Positions 20,281 to 20,799 of a DNA stretch of 64,000 nucleotides are shown one piece after another. The number at the start of each line of letters is the position of its first letter. Position 1 is the stretch's first letter. Source of the DNA: an uncultured Clostridia bacterium (GTDB lineage Bacteria; Bacillota; Clostridia; TANB77; CAG-508); the NCBI GenBank assembly GCA_948502395.1, contig CAOPES010000006.1, positions 49,101 through 113,100 of the forward strand. Direction: 5' to 3'. The notes under the pieces were generated by a model. The model searched no databases. It was given only the letters and a program-made list of their open reading frames with translations, and was not told the DNA's origin. Position numbers and translations under genes: made by a program.

Positions 20281-20679
20281 ATGAAAATCAATTTGGAAGT
20301 TATAAGAATAATTGGAATTGGTCTAATAGCATTAATAATAATAATACTTCTAAAACAATATAGGCCAGAATTCGCAATATACATAAGCTTACTAACAGGA
20401 GTACTAATTTTATTACTAGTAATGGACAAACTAACAGGAATAATAAACTTACTGCAAACACTTGCAAACAAAACATCAATAAATAGCACGTTTCTGACTT
20501 TATTAATAAAAATAACAGGAATAGCATTTTTATCAGAATTTGCAGTAAGTATATGCAAAGACTCTGGTGAAGCAGCAATAGCAAGTAAAATAGAAATAGG
20601 CACAAAAATTATCATAATATCAATGTCAATACCAATAATATCAAGCTTGCTAGAAATAATATTAAAAATACTGCCATGA
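20281..20679 (+). CDS. spoIIIAD: Stage III sporulation protein AD
   Basis: 132-aa polytopic membrane protein in the operon. Confidence 0.75.
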   Translation: MKINLEVIRIIGIGLIALIIIILLKQYRPEFAIYISLLTGVLILLLVMDKLTGIINLLQTLANKTSINSTFLTLLIKITGIAFLSEFAVSICKDSGEAAIASKIEIGTKIIIISMSIPIISSLLEIILKILP

Positions 20680-20799
20680 TGTTTTGGGTGTTTTTGGGGA
20701 CAGTCCTTAAAAACATCCCTGCGGTTTAGGGAAAGTTAGTTTAGAAAGAAATATAAAAGGGTGTTTTTAAGGTCTGTCCCCAAAAACACCCAAAACATC
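20678..20799. repeat. 122-bp near-perfect palindrome (29-bp terminal inverted repeats gatgttttgggtgtttttggggacagtcc) inserted between spoIIIAD and spoIIIAE
   Basis: Arms 20678-20706 and 20771-20799 are reverse complements with 1 mismatch, and an inner second palindrome is present. GGGGACAG core shared with the other intergenic repeats. Overlaps the spoIIIAD stop and ends 12 nt before the spoIIIAE ATG. Confidence 0.7.

What the first reader, a model, noticed from the sequence alone, without database searches (positions are those of the whole stretch)
20678..20799. 122-bp perfect palindrome inserted inside the spoIIIA operon between spoIIIAD and spoIIIAE
29-bp terminal inverted repeats (1 mismatch) enclose a second inner palindrome. 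The element overlaps the spoIIIAD stop codon and ends 12 nt before the spoIIIAE start. It would form a very stable stem-loop in the polycistronic mRNA.

In Bacillus an internal promoter serves the distal spoIIIA genes. Here a repeat-family element occupies an intra-operon junction. It could act as a processing site, a stabiliser or a partial terminator, uncoupling AA-AD from AE-AH expression.
Basis: seen in the sequence. Interest (0 to 1): 0.5.

Follow-up and report, generated by a model that had tools for sequence, protein, structure and literature searches.

The report
REP-like repeat doublet inside spoIIIA operon
The hairpin between spoIIIAD and spoIIIAE is one copy of a dispersed family of small palindromic repeats that flank a single-copy tyrosine (RAYT-type) transposase gene in this gut Clostridia species, so it is an ordinary kind of mobile repeat in a new host rather than a dedicated sporulation switch.

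Summary
The inverted repeat is real, but it is not a perfect 122-bp palindrome. It has two 41-nt arms (2 mismatches) around a non-palindromic 40-nt centre.

- **Unit:** each arm holds a 33-nt module, GGGTGTTTTTGGGGACAG[A/T]CCTTAAAAACACCC, which is itself a hairpin.
- **Family:** I recovered 86 further module copies from five uncultured Clostridia MAGs, as 26 inverted doublets (spacers 36-44 nt) and 34 singlets. Nearly all are intergenic, mostly within 20 nt of a stop codon.
- **Transposase link:** in a MAG that appears conspecific, inverted copies of the module flank a single-copy Y1 transposase. That protein scores far better against the REP-associated tyrosine transposase model than against IS200. 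Orthologues about 58% identical, at a position sharing the upstream ABC-F gene, are flanked by diverged versions of the module.
- **Known class:** the core GGGGACAG fits the GGGGWSAS motif published for TIRYT/TIRtron repeats.
- **Mobility:** some doublets were copied whole to unrelated sites, with no target duplication.
- **Polymorphism:** a more distant relative has an empty spoIIIAD/AE junction. Closer strains carry other repeat families at the same junction.

It is therefore a REPIN-like doublet, a new member of a known kind. The RNA hairpin (-72 kcal/mol) has no U-tract, so any effect on the operon is untested. spoIIIAA and spoIIIAC are also frameshifted here.

The parts
20678..20799 (.). 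Whole element: long-form inverted doublet (REPIN-like) of the repeat family
   Evidence: Inverted repeat I1 with 41-nt arms, 95% complementary, 40 nt between the arms. RNA fold -72 kcal/mol, z = -10. ssDNA fold -42.8 kcal/mol, z = -12.
20678..20685 (+). Left outer stem extension GATGTTTT. It is a partial direct repeat of the module's 5' stem. Its first two bases complete the spoIIIAD stop codon TGA.
   Evidence: The same G[A/G]TG[C/T]TTTT extension is seen at other copies, with covariation (AATGCTTTT...AAAAGCATCC in L043/L034).
20686..20718 (+). Left 33-nt module GGGTGTTTTTGGGGACAGTCCTTAAAAACATCC (T-type loop). It carries the GGGGACAG core.
   Evidence: 1 mismatch to the family consensus. It folds on its own as an ssDNA hairpin.
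20719..20758 (.). 40-nt AT-rich spacer, not palindromic, and unrelated to the spacers of other doublets
   Evidence: best alignment score of the window spacer to any other spacer is 4, at the level of shuffled controls.
20759..20791 (-). Right 33-nt module, inverted (A-type loop: GGGTGTTTTTGGGGACAGACCTTAAAAACACCC on the minus strand)
   Evidence: On the minus strand it is followed by TTTTATATTT, which is terminator-like for antisense transcripts only.
20792..20799 (+). Right outer stem extension AAAACATC, complementary to 20678-20685
20281..20679 (+). spoIIIAD (the homology-supported coding part is 20293-20676). Its stop codon TGA at 20677-20679 overlaps the element. Relatives have TAA at this position.
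   Evidence: NCBIfam TIGR02849, 95.2 bits, above cut-off. tblastn. Junction alignment.
20801..20808 (+). Shine-Dalgarno-like GAAAGGAA of spoIIIAE, starting 2 nt after the hairpin base. The right flank TGAAAGGAACAAATG is identical in the close relatives (spoIIIAE 91-98% identical; L062-L065).
   Evidence: In the minimum-energy fold two of its bases pair weakly with the left flank.
20812..21963 (+). spoIIIAE, intact
   Evidence: NCBIfam TIGR02829, 273 bits, above cut-off. The identical protein is found on 24 contigs.

Best explanation
The element is a non-autonomous, REPIN-like doublet. Two inverted copies of a 33-nt hairpin repeat (core GGGGACAG) are separated by a 40-nt spacer. The family is the cognate repeat of a single-copy, apparently vertically inherited RAYT-type Y1 (HUH) tyrosine transposase of the TIRYT / subclass 2.1 / group 1 kind.

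**Shown**
- The family, its doublet and singlet organisation, and its placement next to stop codons.
- Inverted copies of the module flank the transposase gene in a MAG that appears conspecific, and diverged versions flank its orthologues.
- Whole doublets have been copied to unrelated sites without target-site duplication.
- The spoIIIAD/AE junction is polymorphic.

**Inferred**
- The transposase recognises the strand-asymmetric hairpin as single-stranded DNA and cuts and rejoins it, as in the IS200/IS605 and E. coli TnpA(REP) paradigm. This placed a doublet right after the last sense codon of spoIIIAD, where its first bases recreated a stop codon.
- At this site the element is most likely a tolerated passenger. 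Once transcribed it forms a -72 kcal/mol hairpin. That hairpin could block 3'-5' exonucleases, hinder ribosomes terminating on spoIIIAD, and remove the close AD-AE spacing (17 nt in the empty site), as reported for E. coli REPs. Such effects would be a by-product, not the reason the sequence exists.
For: **Family**
- The genome scan with the 21-mer core gave 55 loci. Of these, 53 come from five uncultured Clostridia MAGs, and the + and - hits lie about 85 nt apart, as in the window.
- 88 modules carry 0-5 mismatches, most 0-2.
- They form 27 doublets with spacers of 36-44 nt, and 34 singlets.
- Logan contigs break inside the right arm, as expected for a multicopy repeat.

**Transposase**
- Joining the end of L028 to the start of L060 gives one ORF with HVH and YIHFNP motifs.
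- It hits Pfam Y1_Tnp at E = 1.4e-11.
- It scores 75.2 bits against NCBIfam REP-associated tyrosine transposase and 17.7 bits against IS200.
- It has the module upstream and an inverted module downstream.
- That MAG matches window 46893-54841 at 96.7% identity.
- Orthologues P0127 and P0134 share the upstream ABC-F neighbour (P0127 also the downstream Tex). They are flanked by diverged inverted modules that keep GGGTGTTTTT...GGGGAC...AAAAACACC.

**Literature**
- TIRYT genes are flanked by inverted repeats sharing GGGGWSAS. These repeats form moderately abundant families of singles and dimers (PMC3733652).
- Subclass 2.1 corresponds to group 1 RAYTs (PMC6006769), and group 1 is also found in Clostridia (PMC5581495).

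**Mobility**
- Three within-genome doublet pairs share spacers while their flanks are unrelated, and there is no target-site duplication.

**Polymorphism at this junction**
- It is empty in L068/L069.
- Other repeat families occupy it in L062-L065.
- This doublet occupies it in the window and L001. L002-L006 begin inside its right arm.

**Placement**
- The median distance to a stop codon is 8 nt.
Against: - No transposase lies in the 64-kb window itself. The link rests on a MAG judged conspecific from a single 8-kb locus.
- The transposase scores just below the curated RAYT cut-off (75.2 against 80).
- The repeats lack the canonical GT[A/G]G foot of REPs.
- Most doublet spacers are unrelated. 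This fits a simple 'copied as a unit' model poorly and leaves the origin of new doublets open.
- Modules are far better conserved than spacers, and they hug stop codons. Host-level selection for a function could also produce this pattern.
- No transposition, cleavage or RNA data exist for this organism.
Confidence: 0.78

Rival explanations
1. It is a host-selected RNA element. The hairpin is kept at the AD/AE junction, and at other stop-codon-adjacent sites, because it stabilises upstream mRNA, attenuates read-through or tunes translation. This would uncouple spoIIIAA-AD from AE-AH.
For: - The RNA hairpin is very stable.
- The family is strongly enriched within 20 nt of stop codons.
- Modules are conserved far better than spacers.
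- REPs are reported to increase mRNA stability (cited in PMC6006769).
- From my own knowledge (Liang, Rudd & Deutscher 2015), REPs close to stop codons reduce upstream translation.
Against: - There is no U-tract in the sense direction.
- Singlets show no clear orientation bias relative to transcription: 12 in the same direction and 7 opposite, hand-tallied from the table, with some orthologous loci counted more than once.
- Conspecific strains have unrelated repeats at the junction, and a more distant relative has none.
- The upstream genes spoIIIAA and spoIIIAC are frameshifted.
- The repeats flank a transposase.
Confidence: 0.13
2. It is a classical MITE: a deletion derivative of a DDE-transposase insertion sequence, with terminal inverted repeats and a target-site duplication.
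For: It is about 120 bp long, has long terminal inverted repeats, is intergenic and is multicopy.
Against: - No target-site duplication is seen at the window copy or at copied doublets.
- The internal sequence is not conserved.
- The 33-nt unit also occurs alone.
- The only gene flanked by the repeats is a Y1/HUH transposase, not a DDE enzyme.
Confidence: 0.03
3. It is an intrinsic (bidirectional) transcription terminator that splits the operon.
For: It has a GC-richer stem in a 29% GC genome. On the minus strand the right module is followed by TTTTATATTT.
Against: - On the sense strand the hairpin is followed by CTGAAAGGAAC, with no U-tract.
- spoIIIAE starts 12 nt later and has no recognisable promoter of its own inside the element.
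- The spoIIIAE protein is 100% identical on 24 contigs, so the gene is at least not visibly decaying.
Confidence: 0.04

Closest known systems
TIRtron / TIRYT repeat families (Di Nocera, De Gregorio & Rocco 2013, PMC3733652), which correspond to TnpA(Y1) subclass 2.1 (Quentin et al. 2018, PMC6006769) and RAYT group 1 (Bertels et al. 2017, PMC5581495)
   Same: - A RAYT-like Y1 transposase is flanked by inverted repeats carrying the GGGGWSAS motif (here GGGGACAG).
- The repeats partly self-pair and form a moderately abundant dispersed family of singles and dimers.
- The transposase is single-copy and has a C-terminal extension beyond the Y1 core.
- Group 1 is reported to be also found in Clostridia.
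   Different: - No clostridial TIR or REP family was found in the papers I searched.
- The doublets have a tightly constrained spacer length (36-44 nt) but mostly unrelated spacer sequence.
- The repeats are strikingly adjacent to stop codons.
- The C-terminal HTH could not be confirmed by sequence.
REPIN-RAYT systems of Pseudomonas fluorescens and E. coli (REP/BIME; Bertels & Rainey 2011, PMC3116915; Nunvar et al. 2010, PMC2817692)
   Same: - Inverted doublets of a short imperfect palindrome form a long hairpin.
- Singlets occur alongside doublets, including forms that look like collapsed doublets.
- They are extragenic.
- There is one cognate transposase gene, itself flanked by the repeats.
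- There is no target-site duplication.
- Repeat content varies between strains at orthologous sites.
   Different: - There is no GT[A/G]G foot.
- The transposase scores below the RAYT equivalog cut-off (75.2 against 80).
- Copy number is in the tens, not hundreds.
- The host is an AT-rich Firmicute.
E. coli intra-operon REPs (for example malE-malF)
   Same: A transcribed, stable hairpin lies between two cistrons, immediately after a stop codon.
   Different: The effects on mRNA decay and translation are documented in E. coli. They are only inferred here.
IS200/IS605 family
   Same: It uses HUH/Y1 chemistry, recognises strand-specific hairpins, and makes no target-site duplication.
   Different: Here the transposase is single-copy with a conserved upstream neighbour, scores poorly against the IS200 model (17.7 bits, cut-off 55), and the repeats spread without the gene.

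Membership tests
REP/REPIN-RAYT system | A short (20-60 nt) imperfect palindromic unit, in many extragenic copies | tested here: met
   The module is 33 nt. There are 88 copies in 54 sources. 53 of 61 elements are clearly intergenic, and most of the 5 'in ORF' cases are ORF-calling artefacts.
REP/REPIN-RAYT system | Units arranged as inverted doublets that fold into one hairpin | tested here: met
   All 27 doublets have the + then - arrangement, with spacers of 36-44 nt. The window doublet folds at -72 kcal/mol as RNA and -42.8 kcal/mol as DNA.
REP/REPIN-RAYT system | A cognate single-copy Y1 transposase gene flanked by the same repeats in inverted orientation | tested here: met
   Met in MAG CATGLK01, which is 96.7% identical to the window over 8 kb, and in two orthologous lineages. 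It could not be tested in the window's own genome beyond the 64 kb given.
REP/REPIN-RAYT system | A conserved 5' GT[A/G]G tetranucleotide at the foot of the hairpin | tested here: not met
   The module starts GGGTGT, usually preceded by a T run. There is no GTAG or GTGG at either foot.
REP/REPIN-RAYT system | The transposase reaches the curated score of the REP-associated tyrosine transposase model (NF047646, 80 bits) | tested here: not met
   It scores 75.2 bits, and the orthologues score 65-72 bits. This model is still much the best hit; IS200 scores 17.7-21 bits.
REP/REPIN-RAYT system | The doublet is the replicated unit | tested here: inconclusive
   Three pairs within one genome share spacers while having unrelated flanks. 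Overall, however, spacers are no more alike than shuffled controls.
TIRtron / TIRYT | A RAYT-like Y1 transposase flanked by inverted repeats that are not GTAG REPs | tested here: met
TIRtron / TIRYT | A GGGGWSAS motif in the flanking repeats | tested here: met
   GGGGACAG is present in every family-1 module. The motif is as given in PMC3733652 and PMC6006769. The diverged orthologous flanks have GGGGACGG, which departs at one position.
TIRtron / TIRYT | A C-terminal helix-turn-helix extension (subclass 2.1) | tested here: inconclusive
   An extension of about 110 aa follows the Y1 core. There is only a weak HTH_24 hit (E = 0.006) in orthologue P0134, and PF08279 is precomputed on more distant homologues.
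DDE-type MITE | A target-site duplication and a conserved internal sequence | tested here: not met
Intrinsic terminator | A GC-rich hairpin followed by a U-tract on the transcribed strand | tested here: not met
   only minus-strand or internal weak candidates were found. The sense tail is CTGAAAGG.
Any Rfam RNA family | A match at the gathering score | tested here: not met
   There were no matches in the whole window.
REP/REPIN-RAYT or TIRYT | The transposase binds and cleaves the repeat as single-stranded DNA | not testable with these tools
   This needs biochemistry.

The most novel reading that the evidence does not exclude
This may be an active clostridial RAYT (group 1 / TIRYT) system, a class for which Quentin et al. 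(2018) found no REP-like sequences near the gene. Its doublets would target positions immediately after stop codons and would replace members of sister repeat families at the very same sites between conspecific strains. This pattern is seen at two independent loci: spoIIIAD/AE and window 52.2 kb. It would imply transposase-mediated site-specific exchange between repeats rather than simple insertion, with the side effect of rewiring cistron junctions such as AD/AE.
Probability: 0.2. Interest if true: 0.5.

Novelty: new member of a known kind. Interest (0 to 1): 0.3.

Why it matters
- It explains a conspicuous structure in a sporulation operon as a copy of a genome-wide repeat family. This guards against over-reading it as a spoIIIA-specific regulator.
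- It documents a REPIN-like repeat family with its cognate RAYT-type transposase in AT-rich gut Clostridia. The papers I searched describe such systems chiefly in Proteobacteria and name no clostridial family.
- Strains of one species that carry different repeat families, or none, at the same cistron junction form a natural experiment. They could be used to measure what such hairpins do to operon expression.
- These repeats also break short-read assemblies, as the Logan contigs show.

Tried and rejected
- **Rfam:** a gathering-score scan of the whole window found nothing.
- **More copies in the window:** I found none with up to 3 mismatches to 20-21-nt probes, or up to 7 mismatches to the 33-nt module.
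- **Transposase in the window:** tblastn with the RAYT found none.
- **Solved structures:** phmmer of the RAYT against the PDB found no hit.
- **Target-site duplication:** none is consistent. The TGA seen on both sides of the window copy does not recur at other copies.
- **Common doublet spacer:** rejected, since spacers are mostly unrelated.
- **Invertible promoter:** considered and rejected. 40 nt is too short to invert, and no recombinase is nearby.
- **CRISPR-like array:** rejected. The repeats are inverted pairs, not direct arrays.
- **Integron attC:** rejected. There is no integrase or cassette context.
- **DNA uptake sequence:** rejected. The unit is 33 nt, intergenic only and tied to a transposase.
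- **Sigma-54 promoter for family 3:** rejected. The GG-GC spacing is one base short.
- **Literature:** searches for REP/RAYT in Clostridia or Firmicutes found only the statement that group 1 RAYTs are also found in Clostridia. The paper on REPs near stop codons (Liang et al. 2015) is not in the library.

Full report
**1. What is in the sequence**

Positions 20678-20799 form an inverted repeat. The arms are 41 nt (20678-20718 and 20759-20799), 95% complementary, and 40 nt lie between them.

The arms read GATGTTTTGGGTGTTTTTGGGGACAG[T/A]CCTTAAAAACA[T/C]CC. There are two mismatches, and the centre is not palindromic, so 'perfect 122-bp palindrome' is wrong. Each arm is itself an imperfect hairpin (I6 and I11).

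The flanking ORFs are spoIIIAD (TIGR02849, above cut-off) and spoIIIAE (TIGR02829, above cut-off). They sit in a spoIIIAA-AH gene order.

The spoIIIAD stop codon TGA occupies 20677-20679, so its last two bases belong to the repeat. The spoIIIAE ATG is at 20812, 12 nt after the repeat, and a GAAAGGAA ribosome-binding site lies at 20801-20808.

The structure is far beyond chance:
- Arm probes gave 2 hits against 0.00-0.01 expected.
- The RNA fold is -72 kcal/mol, z = -10.
- The ssDNA fold is -42.8 kcal/mol, z = -12.

An independent metagenome assembly (L001) has the identical element, so it is not an artefact.

**2. It is one copy of a dispersed family**

The window has no second copy. Short-read contigs that carry the same spoIIIAE break inside the right arm, which hinted at a multicopy sequence.

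One scan of species-representative genomes with GGGTGTTTTTGGGGACAGWCC returned 55 loci. Of these, 53 come from five uncultured Clostridia or Clostridium MAGs. The other two come from unrelated phyla and match only 21-25 nt.

Re-searching these loci defined a 33-nt module, GGGTGTTTTTGGGGACAG[A/T]CCTTAAAAACACCC. There are 88 copies with 0-5 mismatches, most with 0-2. They form 27 doublets and 34 singlets. Every doublet has the module on +, then a 36-44 nt spacer, then the module on -.

Counts per MAG:

| MAG | Doublets | Singlets |
|---|---|---|
| CATGLK01 | 21 | 18 |
| CANBES01 | 1 | 13 |
| CASSLW01 | 3 | 2 |
| CATLUC01 | 1 | 0 |
| CANEMG01 | 0 | 1 |

These are lower bounds, because only exact 21-mer matches seeded the loci.

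Locus L041 of CATGLK01 aligns to window 46893-54841 at 96.7% identity. I therefore treat that MAG as the same species as the window, although this rests on one locus.

The module is strand-asymmetric. Two G-T positions in the stem become A-C mismatches on the other strand.

The outer 8 nt of the window arms (GATGTTTT / AAAACATC) recur at other copies as G[A/G]TG[C/T]TTTT. They show covariation, for example AATGCTTTT...AAAAGCATCC in L043 and L034. The window copy is therefore a 'long-form' doublet.

**3. Where the family sits**

Of 61 elements, 53 are clearly intergenic. Of the 49 that adjoin a gene 3' end, 32 lie within 20 nt of the stop codon, with a median of 8 nt measured from the module core. 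The median distance to a start codon is about 80 nt.

Singlets between co-directional genes show no clear orientation bias: 12 co-oriented with transcription and 7 opposite. I tallied this by hand from the table, and some of these loci are orthologous across MAGs.

The position at the end of spoIIIAD is therefore the family's usual habit.

**4. The associated transposase**

A motif filter over ORFs in the loci picked out one at the start of L060. L028 and L060 are adjacent stretches of one CATGLK01 contig. Joining them gives a continuous ORF of about 250 aa, with HVM/HVH and YIHFNP motifs.

- It matches Pfam Y1_Tnp at E = 1.4e-11.
- It scores 75.2 bits against the NCBIfam model 'REP-associated tyrosine transposase' (NF047646). 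This is just under the 80-bit cut-off. The IS200 model scores 17.7 bits.
- The gene lies between an ABC-F gene (527 aa) and tex (727 aa).
- It has one module upstream in the gene's orientation and one inverted module downstream.
- It is the only copy in about 420 kb of repeat-bearing loci.

Homologues are mostly found on contigs of about 1 kb. This is expected if repeats flank them.

Two orthologues, 59% (P0127) and 58% (P0134) identical, lie directly downstream of the same 527-aa ABC-F gene. P0127 also keeps tex downstream. They are flanked by inverted, diverged modules:
- GGGTGTTTTTGGGGACGGGGCAAAAAAACACCC
- TGTTTTTGGGTGTTTTTGGGGACGGAGGAAAAAAACACC

These keep the stem and GGGGAC while the distal part changes.

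This is the arrangement of a REPtron or TIRtron: a single-copy transposase, apparently vertically inherited, with its own flanking repeats.

**5. Comparison with the literature**

- Di Nocera et al. (PMC3733652) described RAYT-like genes flanked by inverted repeats that are not GTAG REPs. They named these 'TIRtrons', encoding 'TIRYTs'. Many of the repeats share GGGGWSAS, some self-pair, and they form 'moderately abundant families' organised as singles, dimers or clusters. GGGGACAG fits that motif exactly.
- Quentin et al. (PMC6006769) equate TIRYTs with their subclass 2.1 and with Bertels' RAYT group 1. They note a C-terminal HTH-like extension and found no REP-like sequences near these genes.
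- Bertels et al. [quoted passage not shown]
- Bertels & Rainey (PMC3116915) define REPINs as inverted REP doublets plus spacer that form hairpins, with singlets as decay products.

The element therefore works like a REPIN. By membership it fits the TIRYT branch, not the canonical GTAG-REP branch. The GT[A/G]G foot was tested and is absent, and the curated RAYT score is narrowly missed. The C-terminal HTH is unconfirmed.

**6. Evidence of mobility and of turnover at this junction**

Overall, doublet spacers are no more alike than shuffled controls. Three pairs within CATGLK01 are exceptions: L013/L028, L029/L041 and L009/L027. They share their spacers, while homology stops at or within a few bases of the module ends. 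No target duplication is seen. Whole doublets have therefore been copied, as expected for HUH/Y1 chemistry.

States found at the spoIIIAD/AE junction:

| Lineage | spoIIIAE identity to window | Junction content |
|---|---|---|
| L068, L069 | 79% | Empty, 17 nt between stop and start |
| L063, L064 | 98% | Family 2 (ACTTTTTGGGACAGGCCAAAAAAGT) plus family 3 (GTGTCCCCAAATGGACAAAATGTCCAAAAGGAAACGTCCCCAATGGACA) |
| L065 | 91% | The same family 2 plus family 3 block |
| L062 | 98% | Two family-2 units plus family 3 |
| Window, L001 | 100% | The full family-1 doublet |
| L002-L006 | 100% | Contigs start inside the right arm, so only that arm is seen |

The right flank TGAAAGGAACAAATG is the same in all the close relatives. 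The left boundary is just after the last spoIIIAD sense codon. Relatives have TAA there, whereas the window has T plus the element's GA.

The reverse situation holds at window 52.2 kb. The window has a family-2 doublet and CATGLK01 has a family-1 doublet, between identical flanks.

I cannot say how one family replaces another at the same site.

**7. Likely consequences for the operon (inferred)**

- In a read-through transcript the doublet is a -72 kcal/mol hairpin that starts inside the stop codon and ends 2 nt before the ribosome-binding site.
- No U-tract follows it on the sense strand, so it is not an intrinsic terminator. Only the minus strand has a terminator-like module plus T-run.
- REPs are reported to increase mRNA stability (as cited in PMC6006769). 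From my own knowledge, REPs within about 15 nt of a stop codon lower expression of the upstream gene (Liang, Rudd & Deutscher 2015). By analogy it could protect AA-AD RNA, impede termination on spoIIIAD and remove the close AD-AE spacing. None of this is shown.
- spoIIIAA carries a one-base insertion near 19080 and a 13-nt tandem duplication near 19275. spoIIIAC has an extra C at 20173.
- Close relatives also have a split spoIIIAA and altered spoIIIAC.
- The operon may already be impaired, which makes a tolerated passenger insertion more plausible.

**8. Verdict**

The regulatory half is untested and is not needed to explain the element.
- It is a new member of a known kind: RAYT/TIRYT-associated REPIN-like repeats, here in gut Clostridia.
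- Interest is modest. The most interesting open points are the family switching at identical sites, the stop-codon adjacency, and the constrained length but unrelated sequence of the spacers.

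Noticed in passing
window 18495-19411: spoIIIAA is broken into three frames. An extra G near 19080 shifts the frame (the tblastn frames change at 19072-19082). A 13-nt tandem duplication (GCAATACGGAAAG / GCAATAAGGTCAG, about 19270-19295) shifts it again before the conserved GVKGLFTMHG segment. Close relatives (L001, L062-L065) also have a split spoIIIAA. Even the 79% relative L068 ends out of frame at the same region. This could be pseudogenisation or recoding.
   Followed up: partly
window 20059-20251: spoIIIAC has a one-base insertion (an extra C at 20173) that changes its last 26 codons. 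In L062-L064 spoIIIAC and spoIIIAD are called as one fused 202-aa ORF, and in L065 spoIIIAC is 55 aa.
   Followed up: partly
window 39005-39035 and 52226-52298: A second, related hairpin repeat (family 2: GGA[C/T]TTTTTGGGACAGGCC[A/C]AAAA[A/C]GTCC) occurs once as a singlet after a stop codon and once as a tight doublet with a 9-nt spacer. It has the same loop core GGGACAG as family 1, with compensatory stem changes.
   Followed up: partly
window 52226-52298 versus L041 5342-5449: At this orthologous site, with identical flanks, the window has a family-2 doublet and the apparently conspecific MAG has a family-1 doublet followed by AAAAAGTCC, which is the last 9 nt of a family-2 module. This is the mirror image of the situation at the spoIIIAD/AE junction.
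   Followed up: partly
window 39168-39222 and 44983-45062; also L063 about 2930-2990 and L070 about 1340-1400: A third repeat type (family 3) has the form TGTCCCC-N3-4-TGGCAAAAAATTGCCAAAAAGGNCCGTCCCCAATGGCA. It lies just upstream of ribosome-binding sites and often next to family 1 or 2. One copy sits upstream of a second RAYT paralogue (P0232), which lies between dnaB and a PF01171 (ATP_bind_3, TilS-type) gene followed by ftsH.
   Followed up: no
L060 about 470-490 (minus strand) and L076 about 1470-1500: The RAYT-type gene appears to start with ATT (ISR...) where the orthologue in L073 has ATG (MSR...). This non-canonical start occurs in two lineages and might keep transposase levels low.
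   Followed up: no
L047 1984-2024: A module lies inside a pyrimidine-nucleoside phosphorylase-like gene and is read through in frame (...GEILDVLGVFGDRPKKHPKIIVDKHSTGGVGDK...). It is an intragenic repeat that adds residues just before the conserved DKHSTGG motif.
   Followed up: partly
window 1-64000: No Rfam family reached its gathering score anywhere in the 64 kb (no tRNA, riboswitch or leader). GC skew is positive in every 2-kb bin, consistent with a single replichore arm.
   Followed up: no
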